Assembly (NCBI GenBank): GCA_964016885.1
Contig: OZ024743.1
Coordinates: 283,464,001-283,528,000 of the forward strand
Length of the DNA: 64,000 nt
DNA from: Eledone cirrhosa
Taxonomy: Eukaryota
Direction: 5' to 3'
Shown here: positions 47,957-63,600 of the stretch, one piece after another
Layout: the number at the start of each line of letters is the position of its first letter
Numbering within the stretch: position 1 is the first letter of the stretch
The notes under the pieces: generated by a model
What the model saw: the letters and a program-made list of their open reading frames with translations, nothing else
Database searches by the model: none
Told to the model about the DNA's origin: nothing
Position numbers and translations under genes: made by a program

Positions 47957-48604
47957 CTCTATTCAGCTAACCATAATTATTCACTTCTAACATGTCAAGT
48001 AATACTTTACTTCAACTTAACATCTCTGGTAAGCAGAAAGAAATATCAGCCACTACAAAACAAGGATTTTCAAAAAGATCAATAATTGAATGAATAAAAC
48101 TCCTCCGATGTCTAAGAGAGAAAGAGAGAACCTTTAGCAACTATCAATACCTTCCAAAACGAGGCTAGCCAGCTGATTAACCAACCCATTTTGCCTTCCA
48201 CTAACTCACCTTTGATCTAATACTAGATAGACAGTCTCTTCCTTGTTCTTGTTGCTCCTCTTCAATAACCACCACAACAACCAACACAACCACTATCACC
48301 ACCATTGCTCAAAGTCTCTACCTCCACCACCAACTTAGCAGTAGAGGAACTCTCATTCTTTGTTATAATACCTATACCTTTCCCTCTTTCTTTCTCTCTC
48401 TCTCCTTTCTTTTTATATATTGTTAATCATATGAAGCCAACTATGATTTATATAGTGTCACCCTCAGCTTCCCTTTCCCTTCAATATCTCACTTGAATGT
48501 TTCCTTTTTTAAATTTACAAAATTACAAGGTTTCCTATATTCTGACAGAACCTACCTACCTACCTACCTACCTACCTACCTACCTACCTACCTACCTACC
48601 TACA

Positions 48605-48635
<31 letters not shown>

Positions 48636-48724
48636 TTACATACATACATATATATACATACATAAAATAATTTAACCAAAAGTACGTACACACACACACA
48701 CACACGCATTTATATAGATAGATG

Positions 48725-48773
48725 ATGTCTACAGGACTAGAACTGTTTCATTCATATGAAATCATCAGGACAT
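48725..48773 (-). ncRNA. Type I hammerhead ribozyme
   Basis: ATGTC-CTGATGA-T TTC atat GAA T-GAA-ACAG ttctagtc CTGT-A-GACAT; an inverted decayed twin (CTGGTGA) lies at 48773-48817 on +. Confidence 0.7.
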
Positions 48774-48837
48774 TCCTGGTGATTCCTATTGAATGAAACA
48801 GTTCTAGTCCTGTAGAAGTCATTTGTACATATATAAT

Positions 48838-49132
48838 AATTGTTTCTATTTTAGGCACAAGGCCAGCAAATAACCAGTATATTACTAGTACTTTATTTTA
48901 TCGACCCCGTAAGGATGAAAGGCAAAGTTAACCTTTGCTGGATTTGAACTCAGATCATAAAGGGACGTAACTCTATGCTTCAACACATGGTGTCTGACTC
49001 TCTACCGATACTGCCAATCCACATATAATAATTGTTTCTACTATTGGCACAAGGCCAGCAAATACCCAGTACATTACTGGTACTTTATTTTATCGACCCC
49101 CGTAAGGATGAAAGGCAAAGTTAACTTCGGCA
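48838..49132 (-). mobile_element. Two family A SINEs (one partial) interrupting a PLE pLTR
   Basis: SINE bodies; the pLTR resumes near 49155 with atgtattgagtacc...gtccac. Confidence 0.8.
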
Positions 49133-49228
49133 GTTAATCCACATATAATAATGATGCCTCTACTCTATCAATGTATTGAGTACCTTTATAATTGTAGTCC
49201 ACCCCCTCAACACAACTCTGGAATCTAC

Positions 49229-49283
<55 letters not shown>

Positions 49284-49359
49284 AGTAATCCTATTTTTTT
49301 CCTTTTTGCTAAAGTGAAATAAAGATATAAATTCAACCAGAATTAAATATATATATATA

Positions 49360-49615
49360 TCATCATCATCATCATCATTTCATTTTACGTTCGCTTTTTC
49401 CCTGCTTGCAAGGGTGGGACGGGAACTGATTCTGGCTTGATTTCTACAGCTGGATGCCCTTCCTAACACCAACCTCATTTACAGTGAGTGCTGGGTGCTT
49501 TTTTGCCGTGGCACCTCCACGACCACTTTGCAGTGGAATGATAGGGACCCCAGTCCATATCATCTCATTTCTACAGCTGAGTAAACTGGAGCAATGTGAA
49601 ATAAAGTGTCTTGCT
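49360..49615 (-). mobile_element. SINE family B, 5'-truncated
   Basis: Antisense match to 26185-26346 plus 30271-30367. Confidence 0.85.
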
Positions 49616-49617
49616 AT

Positions 49618-49648
<31 letters not shown>

Positions 49649-49653
<5 letters not shown>

Positions 49654-50887
49654 ATACTTGGGGAGGGTCATATTTGTGTAATATTGCCAGAATTAATAAC
49701 AGAACACACTCACTGTTTGGTTGGTTTTCGCTTTTCGCTTCTGTGTCTTTTATATCGGTAATCTAATTTATTCGCTCCTCAATGTTGCCATTGACTGACC
49801 AACGGTCAAAAATAATACAGATACAATATAGACACAAACACATATATATAGTTTATCAAAATTCTTTCATTGCACATCTGCAACATCGTCAGTGGTGCTA
49901 TTGTTTCCTCCCGTTACATTGTATTTTCTACGCCATCTTTATTTAGTCTGTTTATATATTTATTTATTTGTTTATTTTATTTTGTCTTCTTTGCGCATGC
50001 ATTTGCGTGTGTGTATAGTGTTTTGTTTGATAAACTGTAAAACTAGAAACGTAGTCTATAGCATAAGATGTACAGAGGGTACTTGCAGAAACATGACAAC
50101 AATATACATAGGCGAGACAGCTCGTAGCATAGGTGAAAGGATAGACCAACACTGGGAGGAACTAAAAGGACGAAAAAACGGGTCAGTACTATATGAACAT
50201 GCCAGACAACAACACGACGGTAACATAGACAACATAGAAATTAGAATAATATCTAAACATAGAAATGACCCAGCAGGTAGGCAAATCAGAGAGGCCAGTG
50301 AAATAGAACTTAGAAGGCCAAGGCTAAACAGAAAGAATGAATGAAATAACAACACCCAAACAAATAACACTGACCTAAGAGAAGTATAAATAAATAAATA
50401 AACAGATAAATAAATAAATACATACACAAGCACAATAACAACAAACACATATAAACACACACTAGTAAAGATAGAATACATTAACCAATACACAGTCACC
50501 CAATCACGAACACACATCAAACAAAACACTATACACACACGCAAACGCATGCGCAAAGAAGACAAAATAAAATAAACAAATAAATAAATATATAAACAGA
50601 CTAAATAAAGATGGCGTAGAAAATACAATGTAACGGGAGGAAACAGTAGCACCACTGACGATGTTGCAGATGTGCAACGAAAGAATTTTGATAAACTATA
50701 TATATGTGTTTGTATCTGTATTATTTTTGACCGTTGGTCAGTCAATGGCAACATTGAGGACCGAGTATATTAGATTACCGATATAAAAGACACAGAAGCA
50801 AAAAGCGAAAACCAACCAAACAGTGAGTGTGTTCTGTTATTAATTCTGGCAATATTACACAAATATGACCCTCCCCAAGTATAGCAA
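49649..50887 (+). mobile_element. 5'-truncated Penelope-like element: GIY-YIG domain between inverted pLTRs
   Basis: Arms 49649-50031 and 50516-50887; 50032-50344 encodes CKTRNVVYSIRC..IYIGETARSIGERIDQH..RQIREASEI..LNRKNE; HHR-like motif in each arm (49855-49896, 50651-50692). Confidence 0.85.
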
Positions 50888-50928
50888 TATTTGTTTCGAC
50901 ACACGATTTCATATAAAAAACCTCGCAA

Positions 50929-50932
<4 letters not shown>

Positions 50933-50970
<38 letters not shown>

Positions 50971-51006
50971 AATATATAAGAACCGTTAAGGGTGAAAGCA
51001 GCGATT

Positions 51007-51040
<34 letters not shown>

Positions 51041-51065
51041 AATCGCTGCTTTCACCCTGCAGCGA

Positions 51066-51107
<42 letters not shown>

Positions 51108-51143
51108 AATCGCTGCTTTCACTCTTAACGGTTCTTATATATT

Positions 51144-51172
<29 letters not shown>
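50933..51172. repeat. Nested palindromes built from a ~40-bp unique segment and (TA)n
   Basis: tcaaatatataagaaccgttaagggtgaaagcagcgattc, then partial and full reverse complements separated by TA runs. Confidence 0.9.
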
Positions 51173-51178
<6 letters not shown>

Positions 51179-51492
51179 CAATATCGGAGAAAGCTTTTTA
51201 GCGATACTCCGGCCAAATTCCAACTCACTCAACAAACATTGGGAAATAAGTGATGATATTCCCAATTATGTGTTCGGGGTGCTAACTAAAAGTATTGCGT
51301 GGAAAATTGGCTGTATTATTTCAAATGAGACATATCTAATATGATATATATATATATATATATATAATAATTGTGGTTGAATTTATATCTTTATTTATAT
51401 ATATATATATTAATATATATATATATATATATATATATGTAAAGTTATATTTAAAATTGTTGGGTTACAACTAGTAAATATATATATATATA

Positions 51493-51703
51493 TAGGAACA
51501 AGTAAGACCCCGACGGCTGAGCTCAAGCCGTTTCGACGGCTAATTCTGTACTCTACGGCTAATTGAGTACAGAATTAGCCATCGAAACGGCTTGAGCTCA
51601 GCCGTCGGGGTCTTACTTGTTCCTATTACCCACTCTACCACCCTAAGTATTGAGTACTTTGGTGCGTTATGGTCCACCTGGTTCCTTACCACATTTCCTT
51701 CGT
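51493..51703 (+). mobile_element. PLE pLTR end with 133-bp fold-back hairpin (3' half of a hammerhead)
   Basis: Palindrome 51493-51625 containing GAAACGGCT tgagctc AGCCGTC GGGGTC; identical copies at 55539-55671 and 57825-57957 in the opposite orientation. Confidence 0.8.
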
Positions 51704-51816
51704 TATATATATATATATATATATATTTATATACGTTATTCCGGGTTGAATCGGAGGTAACCACAGTAAGTAAGGTACTCAATACATAGCAGAGTATAAA
51801 AGTTTTAATATAGATG

Positions 51817-51867
51817 AGATTCTACAGGACTAGAACTGTTTCATTCTTTAGAAATCATCAGGAATCT
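51817..51867 (-). ncRNA. Type I hammerhead ribozyme in a PLE pLTR
   Basis: AGATTC-CTGATGA-T TTC taaa GAA T-GAA-ACAG ttctagtc CTGT-A-GAATCT; followed on the minus strand by tattgagtacc and a (TA)n junction. Confidence 0.72.
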
Positions 51868-52454
51868 GGGTATCAAAAAATAAAAATGGTATTTATAGGT
51901 CTCTACAAGTTGTAGGAGAGGGTGGGGAGTGGGATGGCTGTAGGTCATTGGTTGATAGAAAAGGGAATTCATTAAAAGCTAATTCTACAAAGCTATAGTT
52001 TATTTTTATTTATATTTATCTATGTTTTTAGAGTAACAAGGGCAGACAGAATTCTATAAACAGGTTCCGGATGGCATACCATTCCTTGTCATTAAGTTTC
52101 TCTTAAGCTAACAGATGTCTATAAGATCAGTGGGGGGTCAGTCATGGTCGATAGAATTAAAGAAAAGGGAGATTCTTTAAAAGCTAAAATCATTAAGGTT
52201 CTACTAAGTGACAAAGGTTTAGAGAATTCTGTAGACAGATTCAAAATACTGAGTGCATATCTTACAATTATCTTCGAACTTCTCTTAAACTAATCAACTA
52301 TATGCCAAAAATCAACAGACACATTCACAAAAAAAAAAAAACATACTCACTCACACACTCACGCGCAACCATAAACACACATACACATACACATATACAC
52401 ACATAAAAACACACACACATATATATAAATATATTTATATACATACACATACAT

Positions 52455-52497
<43 letters not shown>

Positions 52498-52654
52498 TAC
52501 ATATACATACACACACACATACATATATATATACACACACACACACACATATATACACATATAAATACACTCACACACATACATACAAACACAAAAATAC
52601 ATGTGTATACATATACACACAAATACACATAGATATATATACACATATATACAG

Positions 52655-52700
<46 letters not shown>

Positions 52701-52996
52701 AATGCTGACAATAGAAAATGCTGACAAATTGTTCACAGTTGAAAAATGGTTTAATTAGGAATAAAAGAGTATTAGTGATTGTATGGGTTAGTATTCAGTT
52801 GTGGTTTTAAGTTTTTAAGTTTTTACCGGTTGCGCATTTCTAAATGCTTTTCAAAAATAATTTTGAGATAGAGTGTCCGTGCTGTATATATATATATATA
52901 TACATATATACACATACATATATATATATATATATATAAAAAACACATACACACACATATATATACATATACACACACACACACAAACACACACAG

Positions 52997-53081
<85 letters not shown>

Positions 53082-53201
53082 TATACATAAACAAATATAT
53101 ACATATACATACACACACACACAAATACATACACATATATATATATATACACATATATACACACACACAAGCACATACACATATATATAAGGAAAAAGCA
53201 C

Positions 53202-53281
<80 letters not shown>

Positions 53282-53323
53282 TACACCATTCATACATATA
53301 TTCATATATATATACATACACAC

Positions 53324-53366
<43 letters not shown>

Positions 53367-53387
53367 CAAATACATATATATACATAT

Positions 53388-53458
<71 letters not shown>

Positions 53459-53590
53459 TATACATACACATATACATATATATATACATATATACACATA
53501 TATATACATACATATACACACACATATATACACACACACACATATACACATATATATATACACACACACACACACATACACATGCATATG

Positions 53591-53667
<77 letters not shown>

Positions 53668-53752
53668 ATATATATACAAATATACACATACATACACAGA
53701 CCTATACATAAATATACACATATATACAGACATATAACGCATATATACACAC

Positions 53753-53783
<31 letters not shown>

Positions 53784-53954
53784 CACGCATACACACATAC
53801 ACACACACACACACAGATATATATACACACTCTCTCTCACGCACACATATATATATATATATACACATATATATACATATATATATACACATATATATAT
53901 ATACATATATATATATACATATACACACATATATATACACACCTGCCCACACAC

Positions 53955-53985
<31 letters not shown>

Positions 53986-54006
53986 TACACACATACACAC
54001 ACACAC

Positions 54007-54041
<35 letters not shown>

Positions 54042-54088
54042 CAAATATATATATATATATATATATACATATACACACATACATATAC

Positions 54089-54121
<33 letters not shown>

Positions 54122-54484
54122 CATACATACACATATATACACATATATATATATATATACATATATATATACACATATATATACATATATACATACACAT
54201 ACATACATAAATATACACACATAAAACACATATACACACAAACATATATATATATATATACACATACACATACATATACACACATACAAACAAATAAACA
54301 CATACAAATAAATAAGTACTCAATAAATATACGCATATACGCAGGCACATAAAAACACCTCTACAGGCAGAAAATGTAGATACGAAAGAGGTACTCACAT
54401 AACCATAGTGGCCGTATTTCAGGTTGAGGAGGGGTGGGGGTAGGGTGGGGAGGAGGTATAGGGGCCAATAGGGGGAGGTCGTTT

Positions 54485-55505
54485 TTAGCCATCGGGCTTT
54501 AACACTGGCTTAAAGTGTTTGAAAGTTGCAAAGTTCTTGTGCATGCAGTTCGGGCAGTGTTCAGAGAGTTTGTTCAGTAGCGGGCCCTTGGCGAATAAAA
54601 TTTTGTAGCTCTCTGAAATACAAAGGTTGCAGCCCTTGTGTCCTCCGTTGTAAGAGCGCGCTTTCTGGAGTATTTTCTATTTAAGCGTGAAGGGGGTGGA
54701 GTTCCTTTTGAGGTCCCAAACGTAGGAGGCGAGTGTTGTCTGATTTGATTTATCCGGTCTTCTGAAGGAGTGGGTATGGGCATACCAACGGGTCTTAAAG
54801 TTGTTGGAGGTCATGCCGATGTAAGTTTTTTTGCAATCCTCGGTGCCTGAGATGACATCGCATTTGTATACGATATCATTTGTGAGGCATTTGTTTTCAA
54901 GTGGGCATGCTTCCTTATTTAGGCAATTACATAGAGCCCCAGTCCGGGGATTGGTTTCGGAGGTGGTTGGCTTATTTAATTTTTTAGAATTGTGGTTGGC
55001 TATATTCCTAGCTAGGAGTAAGACAGTCTTATTGTGTTCTTATTAAAGATGGTATGGTACCTATGTTGTATGGGGAAGTGTAATTTCAGTAAAGTGAAGA
55101 AAATCCTAGCTATCGGAGTAGATACCTCTCTATTGAAGGGAGGGTTGTACCAGCTAATCTGCCTATGTCTATTCCTCCTCTGCAATCTTGCGGTGGTTTC
55201 TAGGTAAGTTATCTTATCTTTAAATCCGCTACGGGCGAGGGCGTCATTGTAGTAGGAGGCAGATGCATTAAAAATATCTTTGTTGGCGGAGAGGCCAGAT
55301 ATTCTAATAGAGACGCTTTTTACTAGGTTATCAGTGATGTTTTGGGGGTGGTTTGAATTAACATTAATATATTTAAGGGACTCGTTAGGTTTGTGGTACG
55401 GGTAATAGAGGGAAGTATCTAGGTCGAGAGTGACATCTAAGAAGTTGGCCCTAGTCAAATTAGAATCTATAGTTATACTAAATCCTAGATTAGAGAAGAA
55501 AGAAA
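54485..55505 (-). pseudogene. Naiad-like Penelope element fragment: RT C-terminus + Cys-rich linker + GIY-YIG
   Basis: NFLDVTLDL..YHKPN..SNHP..WYNPPF..IFNKNTIRLSYS, frameshift, then CNCLNKEACPLENKCLTNDIVYKC..TYIGMT..FKTRW..H..SF..(TAG for Trp)..CNLCISE..LLNK..CMHK. Confidence 0.88.
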
Positions 55506-55667
55506 AGTACTCAATACTTAGGGTGGTAGAGTGGGTAATAGGAACAAGTAAGACCCCGACGGCTGAGCTCAAGCCGTTTCGATGGCTAATTCTGTACTCA
55601 ATTAGCCGTAGAGTACAGAATTAGCCGTCGAAACGGCTTGAGCTCAGCCGTCGGGGTCTTACTTGTT

Positions 55668-55743
<76 letters not shown>

Positions 55744-55875
55744 TATACATACACATATACATATATATATACATATATACACATATATATACATACATAT
55801 ACACACACATATATACACACACACACATATACACATATATATATACACACACACACACACATACACATGCATATG

Positions 55876-55954
<79 letters not shown>

Positions 55955-56039
55955 ATATATATACAAATATACACATACATACACAGACCTATACATAAAT
56001 ATACACATATATACAGACATATAACGCATATATACACAC

Positions 56040-56070
<31 letters not shown>

Positions 56071-56241
56071 CACGCATACACACATACACACACACACACA
56101 CAGATATATATACACACTCTCTCTCACGCACACATATATATATATATATACACATATATATACATATATATATACACATATATATATATACATATATATA
56201 TATACATATACACACATATATATACACACCTGCCCACACAC

Positions 56242-56272
<31 letters not shown>

Positions 56273-56293
56273 TACACACATACACACACACAC

Positions 56294-56328
<35 letters not shown>

Positions 56329-56375
56329 CAAATATATATATATATATATATATACATATACACACATACATATAC

Positions 56376-56408
<33 letters not shown>

Positions 56409-56770
56409 CATACATACACATATATACACATATATATATATATATACATATATATATACACATATATATACATATATACATACACATACATACATAATAT
56501 ACACACATAAAACACATATACACACAAACATATATATATATATATACACATACACATACATATACACACATACAAACAAATAAACACATACAAATAAATA
56601 AGTACTCAATAAATATACGCATATACGCAGGCACATAAAAACACCTCTACAGGCAGAAAATGTAGATACGAAAGAGGTACTCACATAACCATAGTGGCCG
56701 TATTTCAGGTTGAGGAGGGGTGGGGGTAGGGTGGGGAGGAGGTATAGGGGCCAATAGGGGGAGGTCGTTT

Positions 56771-57791
56771 TTAGCCATCGGGCTTTAACACTGGCTTAAA
56801 GTGTTTGAAAGTTGCAAAGTTCTTGTGCATGCAGTTCGGGCAGTGTTCAGAGAGTTTGTTCAGTAGCGGGCCCTTGGCGAATAAAATTTTGTAGCTCTCT
56901 GAAATACAAAGGTTGCAGCCCTTGTGTCCTCCGTTGTAAGAGCGCGCTTTCTGGAGTATTTTCTATTTAAGCGTGAAGGGGGTGGAGTTCCTTTTGAGGT
57001 CCCAAACGTAGGAGGCGAGTGTTGTCTGATTTGATTTATCCGGTCTTCTGAAGGAGTGGGTATGGGCATACCAACGGGTCTTAAAGTTGTTGGAGGTCAT
57101 GCCGATGTAAGTTTTTTTGCAATCCTCGGTGCCTGAGATGACATCGCATTTGTATACGATATCATTTGTGAGGCATTTGTTTTCAAGTGGGCATGCTTCC
57201 TTATTTAGGCAATTACATAGAGCCCCAGTCCGGGGATTGGTTTCGGAGGTGGTTGGCTTATTTAATTTTTTAGAATTGTGGTTGGCTATATTCCTAGCTA
57301 GGAGTAAGACAGTCTTATTGTGTTCTTATTAAAGATGGTATGGTACCTATGTTGTATGGGGAAGTGTAATTTCAGTAAAGTGAAGAAAATCCTAGCTATC
57401 GGAGTAGATACCTCTCTATTGAAGGGAGGGTTGTACCAGCTAATCTGCCTATGTCTATTCCTCCTCTGCAATCTTGCGGTGGTTTCTAGGTAAGTTATCT
57501 TATCTTTAAATCCGCTACGGGCGAGGGCGTCATTGTAGTAGGAGGCAGATGCATTAAAAATATCTTTGTTGGCGGAGAGGCCAGATATTCTAATAGAGAC
57601 GCTTTTTACTAGGTTATCAGTGATGTTTTGGGGGTGGTTTGAATTAACATTAATATATTTAAGGGACTCGTTAGGTTTGTGGTACGGGTAATAGAGGGAA
57701 GTATCTAGGTCGAGAGTGACATCTAAGAAGTTGGCCCTAGTCAAATTAGAATCTATAGTTATACTAAATCCTAGATTAGAGAAGAAAGAAA
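56771..57791 (-). pseudogene. Second copy of the Naiad-like fragment
   Basis: Same sequence, including the frameshift and TAG. Confidence 0.88.
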
Positions 57792-57953
57792 AGTACTCAA
57801 TACTTAGGGTGGTAGAGTGGGTAATAGGAACAAGTAAGACCCCGACGGCTGAGCTCAAGCCGTTTCGATGGCTAATTCTGTACTCAATTAGCCGTAGAGT
57901 ACAGAATTAGCCGTCGAAACGGCTTGAGCTCAGCCGTCGGGGTCTTACTTGTT

Positions 57954-58022
<69 letters not shown>

Positions 58023-58877
58023 GTATATAATAATTCTGGTTGAATTTATATCTTTATTTCACTTTAGCAAAAAGGAAAAAAATAGGATTACTTTTGAATC
58101 GTAAGTATAAAGTTTGATTCACAAATGAATATAGTGTTTAACAAGGCTTCTGTGTTGGGCAGGGGTCTCTGTTTACCATGCAATGTTCTCTTTAAAAAGT
58201 GACAAGTTGTAGCCAGACAGTATGTACCAACAGAGATAGTAGTAAATGTTATTATGGTGAGGTTGTATTGTACAATCGCAGTGACAGAAGAGGCAGATGA
58301 CTCAGATTTGTTGAAGTGACAATGGAAGAAGTGCTGTCGGGCCCTTGTCAAGAGCACCAGAATGTTTTGCTAAGTGCTACATCTCTCTACTTGCTAGAAC
58401 AACACCTGTGATGTCTCCTTTTTGAGAGACAAGAGCAGAATGTGTGTAGAAGCTAATTCATTAATCTCTGATAAACTGCAAATGACTCCCTTCTCCAGAC
58501 CAGGAGACTCCAGATTTTGAAACAAAAGAAAATGAGCAACGTGTTGTCCAGAGATCAGCATATGCGGTTACACTGATCAGAACAAGAGTTTAAATTACTG
58601 CTACATATATAGGGAGAGAGAAAAAGAAAAATGCAAAGTTCAATGTAGATGTTAAAAAGTTCTTTATTAACAGAGCTGTGATACATATTTTAATGATGAT
58701 CGGGGCTATGTGATTTTTCAATCATGCACAATATAATCAGACATCATCTTTCCAAGGCAATCCAATCTAAAGACAAGGGAACAGACAGAAATTATGTTTT
58801 CATTGCTGAAGTTTGACTATAGTAAATAATTTAGCATGCAGGTACAAGTACACCAAAACTCCATATTTAGCTCACTT

Positions 58878-60180
58878 CAGTTTATTATTGCCCTGCAGGC
58901 TATAACAGAGGAGTTTAATACTGGTGCCCATGGGAACTTCTGTATGCAGATGATCTAACCCTTATAGCTATGGCAGATCTAGAGAAGAAATTCCAAATCT
59001 GGAAGCAAGGCCTAGAATCTAATGATTTTAAAGTCAACTTGGTAAAGACCAAAGTCCTAAAAAGGGTAACAGAGACCAGATTCCCTCAGGGAAATGGCCT
59101 TGCTCAGTGTGCAGGAAAGTAGGTAGAAATTCCATCCTATGCCCCAAATACAAACTATGGAAACACAAGAGATGTAGTGGGATCTCAGACAAGCTAGTAA
59201 AGAATGCAGGTTTTATATGTGAATGATGCACAGGTGCAGTAAGTAGCTGGAGCCCACAGGATACTAGCTCCTTTAAATGTCCAGAGGTATCAGTAAAAGT
59301 AGTTGATAGTTTCTGTTACCTGGGTGACAAAATTAGCTGTGAACGAGGTTGTTCTGAAATTACTCTAGCCAGAGGGAGAATGGAATGGAGAAAGTTCAGG
59401 GAGCTACTACTGCTACTAAATACAAAAGGTTTTTCCCTCAAAATGAAGAGCAGATTGTATGATGGGTGTATATGAAAAACAATATTGCATGGTAGTAAGA
59501 GCTGGGTGCTGTGTGCAGAGGACCTGCACAGATTGGAAAGAAATGAAACCGGCAAAGCATAAATGAATTGAGAGAGAAAGTGGGCATAAGAGGTGATAAA
59601 AGCTGACCTTGCACAATTGTACATCTCGAAGGTGATGTCACTGGATTAAGATCTCTGGCATAATGCAGTAATACAGAAGATCCACCTTCCCATGTGCATG
59701 GGTTGAAACATACATCTTGTATGCACTACCTTCTCCTCTCCCTTCCATACACTCCTACATCCTAACCCCCTCTTTTCATCCACATCCCTCCATCCCCTTG
59801 CACCTCCTACCTAACACTCCACATATGTCCTAACACCTCACCCTTCATCCACATCTCTACACCTCCATCCTTCTCCAGATAAGTGCCCCACCCGAGATCT
59901 ACCTCACCAATTCCCATGTACCTCCACCACCCCAGCCCTCAGTCCACACTGTAAAGAGGTTGTTTTGATGCCAGAACAGAAAGCACCCAGTCTACCCTGT
60001 AAATGTGGTTGGCATTAGGAAGGGCATCCAACCGTAAAAACCAAACCCAAAACAGTTCTGTATGAGCAAGACATCTGATCTGGCCTGCCTAACAGCAGGA
60101 CAACTCATCTAACCCATCCTAACTTGGAAAAATGGACATTAAATGGTGATGATGATGATGATGATGATGATGTTGATGAT
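58878..60180 (+). mobile_element. Old degenerate RTE copy
   Basis: IALQAITEEF..PWELLYADDL..GKWPCSVC.. with many indels; (GAT)n tail. Confidence 0.88.
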
Positions 60181-60651
60181 ACACACACACACACACACAC
60201 ACAATGGGTTTCTGCACAGTTTTGACGTCAGGGGGGGAATCTGGCCATATAACTCTTAAAACACTGCCTCAAAACGTCTTGTCCAGCCCATACCAGAATG
60301 AAAAGTTAGACATAAAATGATGATGATGATATATTTTGTATGTTTTATATATATCATCATCATCACTGCTTTACGTCCACTTTTCCACACTGGCATGTGT
60401 TAGATGAGTTGTCTTGTTGTGGGCAATGCCAGGTCAGGTGACTATGCTTTGCTCATCAGCTGGATGCCCTTCCTAGCACCAACCCCATTTACAGTGAGTA
60501 CTGGGTGCTTTTTACCGTGACACTTAAATGACTACTTACAGTGTGGTCTGGGTGCTTTTTGTCGTGACACCTACACAACCACTTTATATATATATATATG
60601 TATATATATAGCCTTTTTCAAATGACTTCTTCATCATCATCATCATCATCA

Positions 60652-63600
60652 TAATAATAATAATAATAATAATGCTTTCTTTATTAACCACAAGGGTTTA
60701 CATAAAGTAGACATTAAGGACAGTACAGGACAATACAGGACGGTACAAATGGGCATTTCTGCGTGTAAAAAAAACAGCGGATGTAATAAAAATAACAATG
60801 AAAAATTCCCCAATAGGGGGGGAGACTTCCGAAGGACATTTGTGGAGAAAGCCCATTAAAAGGCCACAGTGACCCTGACCACCAGTTTTCCACCTTTAAT
60901 TTAAAGACACATACTCAGAGTAGGCCCATTCACTCGGGCCATACTTGTTTCTCTCACCCATCTTTCAACAAAATGCTGGGAAGAGAGCACTTCCCTCTCT
61001 ACCCTGATTTTCCTTTTCAAATGAAATTTGAAAAAGTTAATCAGGGTATCACCGAAGAGGTAAGTGCTCATCTTCTGCCCTTTCAAACGTGTCCACCATA
61101 CTATCTCTTTCGCCATGGCCACCAGACAGATAAAAACTGCCTGCCCTTCCCGGCTAAAGGAAGAGGGCGGGGCAATCCTCACGATGGACTCAGCTGATAG
61201 CTGGATCCGTCCTACACGTGACAGCAGGTGTTCAACATAAACCCATAAGTCAGCAATGCTCGGACACTGGATGAGTGCGTGCAGGACGGTTTCGTCGCCC
61301 TGCGCACATCTCGGACATGCCCGGCTGACGGCACCTCCATGCCTGTAGAGTTTATCCCGAACTGGCAAAGCTCCTCGGTAGCACTGCCAGGCCATGGATT
61401 TCTGGAAGTTGTCCATAGGCCCCGGCCCAAAAGTCCTTCTGAAGAGATTGGCTAGTTGATTTTCGTCGACGCCTAGAGTTTCTCCAAGTACATCGTCGCT
61501 CTTCCCCTCCACTAATACTCTATAGAACACCAAGGTGGAGTTTCCACTGATCACATAGCCCGATTGGTCGAGGGCTGTGAGCGCCTGAAGACATTCCAGT
61601 CTCCAAGCGCTCCCTCTCGATCTTCGCTTGACCCAGGACTGCAGCTTCGACAAGGAGACGAGTTGGGGAGAGACGCGTCTAGCAAACGGCGACCACACCT
61701 GATCACCGTCGAGGAAGAGGTGGAGATGTCGTAAACTGAGCGCGTCTCTGTGCATCATCAGCCACGGCATGCCCAGCCCTCCACGTAGCGGGTGTTGACA
61801 GCAAATGGACCGCCTGACCATCGGAGTGCGTCCCTTCCTCAAAAAGCGAAAGAGCAAATGCTCCAGCACAGTCAGGTGGGGCTTAGGACAAGGTACGACG
61901 GTCAGGCGGTAGTAGATGACGGATGCGATGTACGCGTTAGCACCTCCGCTCGACCTTTCAGGGATAGCTTCCTCTCCGCCCATTTCTGGGTGAGAGAAGC
62001 CACCCTGCTCGTCACCTCGTCCTAGTTTTTGTCTGTCTGTAGGTCCGGACCGAACCAGACCCCTAGCAATTTAACCGGTCCGTCCGTCCAGCGCCCAACG
62101 ACGCTGTTGGACGGCATGGACCTGCCTCTCCAGGTGCCAAGCTGCAGGCCCACTGACCTTTCCTGGTTGATCATTGCTCCTCTCACTGCTTCGTATTCTC
62201 TTACTGTAGTGCCGATCGCCTCGATGTGTTTGGCGTTCGACACCACTATGGTGACATTGTCAGCATATGCTGACACGGATCTTCCGCATCCTAGTTCGCG
62301 CGGGACCCCCCTCAACGTCTCCAGTTTGTGCAGTAATGGCTCGAAGAGGGACGAGAGGGGACATCCTTGGCGGACTGAGAGCATGACGTTGAACGGTTCC
62401 GAAAGGTGACCATTCACTCTCACCACAGAGCATATGTCGCTGTGCAAGGCAGCGATCCAGCCTCTGAAGACGGGCCCAAAGCCAGCCGCCCTCAGGACTG
62501 CCGCTAGGTAACGATGGTCGACCCTATCGAAAGCTTTCGACTGATCTAAATTGATCAAGGACCCACCCGTGCCAGGTTCCCTAGCTACCCTCTCTACGAT
62601 TTATCGCATGAGGTGGAGGTTGTCGTGGATGGATCTGTTGGGAATGGCGCACGTCTGCACCTCTCCCACCAGACCACCAACGACAAGTGCCAACCTCTTT
62701 GCTAGCACCTTGGCCAAAATCTTGAACTCTGTGTGTAGCAGAGTTATGGGCCTGAAATTATCTGTTATCCCCCTTGTTCGGATCCTTTCTCATCAGCGCC
62801 TCAGCTCCTCAGCTCACAGTGCTGGGAATTCTCCCGTTCTGTTGCCAGTTGCAGTAGACGTCCGCCAAGAGACATCCGACCAAGTCTGGCATCTGTACGT
62901 AAAGTTCATAGGGCAGACCATCCAAACCAGGCAATTTACCCCTTGTGCAGCCAGTCATTGCCTCCCGTACTTCAGCGGCTGTTATCGGCTTTTCTTAACA
63001 CTCCGCCTCAGTGGCCGAGAGCCGCGGCAATCCGTCGAGGTAGACGCTAAAGTCCATCCCTCGATCCGGTCCGCCACTGCCCCCGAACAGCTGTGTGAAG
63101 TGTCGCTGAAAAGCTTCACACATTTGCCCGGGATCGAGTAGCATGCGCCTGTCGTGGTCCACCAAAGACCGGATCGTGGCTTTGTTGTCACGACGCGCCT
63201 CCGCCACTCGGGCCCATTGAACAGCTTTCGTCCCCTCATGTCTGACAACGCAGCCTTCGTGCTTTGCATTGAAGAATTGGTCAAGGGCCAATTTCGCCGC
63301 AAGTACGTCGGTCACGATGCCTTTGCTAAGCGCCTCATCTAATTTTCTAACTAATTCTCCCTCTGCTCTATTTTACTCTAGTGCTAAAGCCTTACTAAAC
63401 CTAATGGACTCTATTCTAATCGCTCTTTTCAGAGCAAACCACCACTTGTTGTTGACGATGGCCCCCATCAACGCCCGCTTAACTAGTTCGCTAATCCAGT
63501 CTCTGTAGGCCTTGTGCACTGGTAAGGACGCGTTTAGCTTCCAGTAGCCGGGTGCTCGTCTATGAAGCCTATCTAAGTCAAGCACACAGATCACGAATTT

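What the first reader, a model, noticed from the sequence alone, without database searches (positions are those of the whole stretch)
51493..57957. Naiad-like PLE cassette capped by identical 133-bp hairpins that are fold-backs inside a hammerhead
Seen: the same 133-bp palindrome occurs three times (51493-51625 on +; 55539-55671 and 57825-57957 on -), sharing the asymmetric centre (ctctacggctaattgag) and the same single A/G mismatch. Each arm holds the 3' half of a full-size HHR: stem II strand aattagcc, GAAA, stem III ACGGCT/AGCCGT, GTC and stem I strand GGGGTC. CUGANGA is absent, replaced by the inverted copy. One cap continues into a normal pLTR end; two jump at tattgagtacttt into a 5'-truncated RT/GIY-YIG ORF. 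Inference: a single hairpin intermediate, made by RT template switching at stem II, was reused in one complex insertion. This would be a record of how PLE ends are made.
Basis: partly seen in the sequence, partly recalled or inferred. Interest (0 to 1): 0.75.

Follow-up and report, generated by a model that had tools for sequence, protein, structure and literature searches.

The report
Penelope ends joined at transcription start
The three identical hairpins are real, but they are one ordinary insertion of a very abundant Penelope-type jumping gene plus two likely local copies of it, and the fold point likely marks where the element's RNA begins, because both ends of the cut DNA likely copied that RNA to its start.

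Summary
The three 133-bp hairpins are identical, but the hairpin is a genome-wide form: 16,474 exact matches with differing centres. It is a pLTR (the element's end repeat) of a Hydra-clade Penelope-like element (family B), not Naiad. Intact parents carry a hammerhead with a UUGAUAA (U3-A8) core, not CUGANGA. The adjoining ORF belongs to another Hydra family (A; 50% amino-acid identity). Fold points pile up 29-31 nt after a TATA-like box in both families; in family A that is upstream of the hammerhead core, so stem II is not the cause. 47 of 50 hairpins in each of two samples have one tailed and one tail-less arm, and in 8 of 16 longer copies neither arm can be a copy of the other. Best model: both cut DNA ends prime cDNA, run to the RNA start, and are end-joined. 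Cap 2 is an inverted copy of cap 1; cap 3 lies in a 2,286-bp tandem duplicate (possibly mis-assembled; unverified). No RNA start was measured. The scan noted such hairpins and two-end priming before on other DNA.

The parts
51493..51625 (+). Cap 1: head-to-head solo-pLTR hairpin of Hydra family B; tail-less arm 51493-51553 (inverted), filler 51554-51564, direct arm 51565-51625. Predicted +1 at 51566, non-parental G at 51565.
51626..51704 (+). 75-nt one-sided tail of family B; in two parent copies it continues into the family-B ORF
   Evidence: L218, L220
51705..51729 (.). (TA)n shared target between cap 1 and the family-A insertion
51730..52325 (-). 3' pLTR with tail of Hydra family A, the ORF's own end; CUGAUGA core at 51855-51861, TATA-like box 51891-51897, predicted +1 at 51867
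52326..54330 (-). Microsatellite-rich spacer between ORF and pLTR, also present in other family-A copies
   Evidence: L205, L206
54485..55503 (-). 5'-truncated family-A ORF (RT thumb, CxCX5C linker, GIY-YIG); 13 nt shorter than other copies and broken by a premature stop
55504..55671 (-). Cap 2 with part of the tail: inverted, 100% copy of 51478-51660 at the 5' junction of the family-A copy
55670..58015 (-). Tandem duplicate (period 2,286 bp) of 53385-55729, bounded by (TA)n; holds cap 3 (57825-57957)

Best explanation
Cap 1 is one of about 16,000 head-to-head solo ends of a Hydra-clade Penelope-like element, likely made when both DNA ends of a cut (TA)n each primed a cDNA that ran to the RNA's predicted start and the two cDNA ends were joined. 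Inferred steps: one end starts at the tail-less site, the other at the tail end; a TATA/initiator promoter lies inside the long stem II, so RNA from the 5' pLTR lacks the hammerhead core; microhomology end-joining gives the variable centre. A (TA)n-bounded duplication, or an assembly duplication, gave cap 3.
For: 16,474 hairpins, control 0. In the first 50, 94 of 100 arms end within 1 nt past the predicted +1 or before it, none more than 4 nt past; the longer arm ends at +1/+2 in 30 of 50. TATA-like box to fold point is 29, 30, 30, 30 and 31 nt in five parent copies of two families. Family A has 5,279 hairpins that mostly keep CUGAUGA; none of the 100 printed rows runs into the parent's upstream bases (by eye). 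One tail per hairpin: 47 of 50, 47 of 50, 20 of 20 longer pairs. In 8 of 16 scorable longer pairs the tail-less arm reaches further upstream, so each arm holds sequence the other lacks. Loops under 3 nt in 22 of 50 and 23 of 50, too tight for self-priming. A purified Penelope-like protein extends both strands and starts at two sites matching the tail ends (PMC11167929). Cap 2 shares cap 1's private changes; the family-A copy is young (1 private change in 1,171 nt).
Against: No RNA 5' end was measured; TATA and initiator were read by eye against recalled consensus. The two arms are nearly always the same subfamily (2 of 50 discordant, no clear case, by eye), as self-priming also predicts. The cap-G sign is weak: the base past +1 is parental G 53, C 25, A 20, T 2 of 100 arms, and 7 arms run 6-9 nt further. 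Tight loops could arise by later trimming. The family-A pattern caps the gap at 50 nt, which partly hides longer arms. The cap 2 junction has no clean microhomology. Schostak et al. found Drosophila Penelope's promoter to be internal and TATA-less (PMC2377424).
Confidence: 0.65

Rival explanations
1. Fold-back self-priming: one cDNA reaches the RNA 5' end, snaps back and copies itself; the endonuclease or TA microhomology trims the copy at the tail-less site.
For: Arms share subfamily and private variants (e.g. L238, L245). 27-28 of 50 centres have loops of 3 nt or more. Self-priming was proposed for such palindromes (PMC3846280, Discussion), and nuclease resolution for the tail (PMC8557442).
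Against: 8 of 16 longer pairs cannot be arm-to-arm copies; loops under 3 nt in about 45%; caps also join foreign partners (L069, L076, L083, L086).
Confidence: 0.15
2. The fixed 5' end is an RNA processing site (the TTTAG/TTCAG could be a splice acceptor) or an RT stop in the stem II loop, not a transcription start.
For: A pyrimidine run plus AG lies at the family-B fold point; an intron end meets the hammerhead in D. virilis Penelope (PMC4209133).
Against: No constant upstream exon appears in centres; a family-A subfamily has no AG at the same 30-nt spacing (L090); family A folds at stem I, not stem II.
Confidence: 0.1
3. One reading: one hairpin intermediate, made by RT switching at stem II, was used three times in one insertion.
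For: All three caps are identical, including private changes.
Against: Cap 1 is a full standard insertion in its own (TA)n; caps 2 and 3 lie in a tandem duplicate; cap and ORF belong to different families; the spacer is not parental.
Confidence: 0.04
4. The repeated caps, at least cap 3, are an assembly artefact in hairpin- and microsatellite-rich DNA.
For: The two units differ only in microsatellite or run length; 0 substitutions where about 2.3 are expected if as old as the insertion.
Against: The cap 2/ORF junction is a unique chimeric joint, hard to invent. The hairpin family itself appears in short-read contigs of another sample. This rival concerns copy number only (about 0.3 for cap 3 alone).
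Confidence: 0.06

Closest known systems
Hydra clade of Penelope-like elements (Craig et al. 2021, PMC8557442; e.g. Hydra-1_Obim in its supplement)
   Same: C-terminal GIY-YIG, CxCX5C linker, DKT and RW(K/R) motifs, (TA)n targets, hammerhead in the pLTR
   Different: Two families seen here are 50% identical to each other; family B has a U3-A8 core and a long stem II; the passages and supplement hits read report no fixed-point hairpins
Inverted pLTR plus optional tail insertion unit (Arkhipova et al. 2013, PMC3846280; PMC8557442 Fig. 2)
   Same: Head-to-head inverted copy, one-sided tail, palindrome at the junction
   Different: Explained there by self-priming on an antisense template; here the junction sits at a fixed distance from a TATA-like box and arms are often not copies of each other; tail 75 nt rather than 30-40
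Poseidon PAc in vitro (Frangieh et al. 2024, PMC11167929)
   Same: Two internal RT start sites bounding the tail; both strands cut and extended; AT-rich target
   Different: The parts read give no account of how the two cDNAs are joined or of hairpin products
L1 junctions (PMC11702581)
   Same: End-joining of two opposite RT products, cap-derived extra G, cDNA fold-back onto resected flank, local inverted duplications
   Different: Occasional outcomes in L1; here head-to-head joining appears to be the rule
Naiad
   Same: (TA)n preference, tandem and inverted insertions
   Different: Naiad has an N-terminal endonuclease and lacks canonical hammerheads

Membership tests
Hydra-clade PLE | C-terminal GIY-YIG after RT in one ORF | tested here: met
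   714-aa ORF in L203; GIY-YIG weak hit on the window piece; none on the full protein at E<=1
Hydra-clade PLE | CxCX5C linker, DKT and RWK-like motifs | tested here: met
   CNCLNKEAC, SDKT, RWR in family A; SDKT, RWR in family B; matches the Hydra alignment seen
Hydra-clade PLE | Insertion into (TA)n | tested here: met
Hydra-clade PLE | Placement in the Hydra clade on an RT tree | not tested
   no tree built
Naiad | N-terminal endonuclease with CxC linker before RT | tested here: not met
   order is RT then endonuclease
Type I hammerhead (family-B parent) | Three-helix junction with GAAA and NUH | tested here: met
   folds; z only -1.19; 0 of 19 pairs with two-sided change; no Rfam match
Type I hammerhead (family-B parent) | C3-G8 core (CUGANGA) | tested here: not met
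   UUGANAA in 4 of 8 aligned parents (the U3-A8 variant of PMC4209133), CUG(A/C)GAA in 4 of 8
Type I hammerhead (family-B parent) | Self-cleavage | not testable with these tools
   needs an assay
Pol II TATA/initiator promoter | Capped RNA starts about 30 nt after TATA | tested here: inconclusive
   spacing met; no RNA data
Non-LTR retrozyme | Tandem units each with a full hammerhead | tested here: not met
   caps are head-to-head and lack the core; parents are joined to an ORF

The most novel reading that the evidence does not exclude
Penelope-like elements integrate by two-ended priming as a rule: each end of a double-strand cut starts at one of the two tail sites on the same RNA and the cDNAs are joined head to head. 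Tens of thousands of solo hairpins then form a genome-written map of each family's transcription start, and in family B the promoter sits inside hammerhead stem II, so the 5' end of the mRNA has no ribozyme.
Probability: 0.5. Interest if true: 0.62.

Novelty: new member of a known kind. Interest (0 to 1): 0.4.

Why it matters
How Penelope-like elements make their inverted ends and one-sided tails is an open question (PMC8557442 and PMC11167929 say so). The locus itself is ordinary. The family statistics, though, argue against self-priming, fit the two start sites seen in vitro, and give exact, testable predictions: the RNA start site of each family, and one tail per insertion.

Tried and rejected
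Patterns for a canonical parent: CTGANGA next to stem II gave 7 unrelated hits; CTGANGA within 34 nt gave 38 hits, and the 20 read were junction fillers or foreign partners; a classical GTCC/GGAC stem II gave 1 unrelated hit. A search for read-through past the tail (815 hits, 30 read) showed no ORF read-through, but led to the parent's upstream sequence. Rfam found no hammerhead in 48000-62000 or in the parent. No RNA holder was listed. Contigs of runs X1-X3 and X5 showed neither the cap-ORF joint nor the private centre (one search used X1-X3 and X16); these are blanks, probably another individual, and no evidence on the assembly. Dating cap 2 and the duplication by substitutions did not discriminate (P of no difference 0.75 and about 0.1). 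A first version of the arm-length test scored only 12 pairs (6 tail arm further, 3 tail-less further, 2 unscored, 1 both tailed). Paper searches turned up no paper whose listing, or the parts then read, tied hairpin centres to transcription starts; most subscription journals are not in the library.

Full report
Observation. The three 133-mers are identical, with 62-nt arms, an 11-nt spacer and one A/G mismatch. Cap 1 and cap 2 match over 183 bp at 100% in inverted orientation (51478-51660 against 55504-55686). Caps 2 and 3 lie in a tandem duplicate, 53385-55729 against 55670-58015, 99.83% identical, differing by two small gaps and one edge mismatch in low-complexity runs. So there is one hairpin, one inverted copy and one duplication.

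The cap is a family. A DNA search gave 2,166 first-look candidates; 40 were scored, all with the hairpin, and the 22 of 30 fetched loci that a script could parse had varied centres. A pattern of the two inner arms matched 16,474 places, control 0. In the first 50 on contig C1, a script scored one tailed and one tail-less arm in 47, two tails in 2 and none in 1; by eye one of the two-tail calls is a false positive. A second sample of 50, chosen for both arms reaching the fold point, gave 47, 1 and 2. Ten family-A hairpins looked the same by eye.

The parent. Three loci shared a non-hairpin upstream sequence, which retrieved an older parent. A pattern for the window's subfamily gave 402 matches. 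In the 20 loci read, stem I is followed in nearly all by a UUGANAA core, a stem II of about 55 nt, GAAAC, stem III with a palindromic loop, and GTC. It folds as a three-helix junction, without compensatory changes among 8 close copies and without an Rfam match. U3-A8 is a described core variant in Penelope-like elements (PMC4209133, parts 1-2 of 4 read). In L218 and L220 the tail continues into an ORF that is 50% identical to the full ORF of the window's ORF family. The cap (family B) and the window's ORF (family A) are therefore different families; family A's own pLTR is 51730-52325.

Clade. The full family-A ORF has RT before GIY-YIG, a CxCX5C linker, DKT and RWR. These are the Hydra features in PMC8557442 (section 11 and passages read; supplement hits). 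Naiad has the reverse domain order. No tree was built.

Where the fold lies. Against the parent, 91 of 100 arms end at or before the A of the TTAGT/TCAGT motif, 94 within one base more, and none more than 4 nt past it; the longer arm ends at that A or the next base in 30 of 50. Junctions were 16 with microhomology, 16 blunt and 18 with fillers, often copied from an arm; the microhomology count is slightly inflated by allowed subfamily variants. Family A has 5,279 hairpins, folding just 5' of CUGAUGA. In five parent copies the distance from a TATA-like box to the fold point is 29-31 nt although the sequences differ. I infer a transcription start; TATA and initiator consensus are recalled, and no RNA data were available. 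Both arms of cap 1 have a G where the parent has C just before +1, as a copied cap would give (described for L1 in PMC11702581, passages read). Across 100 arms that sign is weak: G 53, C 25, A 20, T 2 on the cDNA strand.

One cDNA or two. Self-priming makes one arm a copy of the other. Among 69 loci, after dropping duplicates and pairs with a TA run between them, 20 longer head-to-head pairs remained; all had exactly one tail. The tailed arm reached further in 8 (two are near-identical array copies), the tail-less arm in 8, and 4 were unscored. In the second group each arm has sequence the other lacks. Loops under 3 nt occur in 22 of 50 and 23 of 50 hairpins. This fits PMC11167929 (parts 1-2 of 4 read): both strands are extended, and RT starts at two sites bounding the tail. 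Against: arms nearly always share a subfamily, so both cDNAs must come from one RNA or one source locus; PMC3846280 (Discussion and passages read) prefers self-priming; PMC2377424 (passages read) found a TATA-less internal promoter in Drosophila Penelope.

This locus. Cap 1 differs from its parent at two aged positions, one a CpG-type change in one arm only; caps 2 and 3 carry both. The family-A copy has 1 private change in 1,171 nt, so it is young, and its tailed end sits in cap 1's (TA)n. The simplest reading, inferred, is that its truncated cDNA end annealed to the flank 70 bp from the cut, copied cap 1 backwards and rejoined through (TA)n; L1 shows such fold-backs and local inverted duplications (PMC11702581). 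The joint has no clean microhomology, and copying from a read-through RNA of cap 1 is not excluded. The duplication may be biological or an assembly error; the public contigs laid did not hold the joint, which tells nothing either way.

Other papers. PMC13282606 (passages) had no match for hairpin, palindrome or Hydra. For bioRxiv 10.64898/2026.07.22.740005 I read part 1 of 5; its supplements are closed. Earlier scan notes describe the same kind of hairpin and two-end priming on other DNA; I had written that reading before looking, and they are not independent support.

Verdict. A real feature of a known kind. The three-cap story is local copying. What adds value is the family-level evidence that the fold point follows promoter spacing and that arms are often independent cDNAs.

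Noticed in passing
window 48710-48826: Hairpin of the family-A type folding just 5' of the CUGAUGA core
   Followed up: partly
window 49646-50890: Another inverted Penelope-like insertion with a GIY-YIG-like reading frame (50059-50344); a third family
   Followed up: no
window 50936-51178: Nested short hairpins of a further repeat family around (TA)n
   Followed up: no
window 51648, 51778, 54318, 49176: The motif ATTGAGTAC recurs in the tails of families A and B, after the family-A ORF and in another repeat end; a candidate RT-binding signal
   Followed up: no
L120 and relatives versus L209: Older family-B parents have a mismatched core (CUGAGAA), younger ones the paired U3-A8 core
   Followed up: partly
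L206:3000-5300: A family-A copy holds several tandem copies of a roughly 340-bp satellite between its two arms
   Followed up: no
L188, L068: Poly-T/poly-A fillers at hairpin centres, as from a jump onto a poly(A) tail
   Followed up: no
L069, L076, L083, L086: A family-B arm joined head to head with the end of a different hammerhead-bearing family
   Followed up: partly
L130-L133: Near-identical copies spaced about 44 kb apart on contig C2, a large tandem array
   Followed up: no
window 60901-62070: Reading frame with a zf-RVT domain (E=3.6e-08), an unrelated non-LTR element
   Followed up: no
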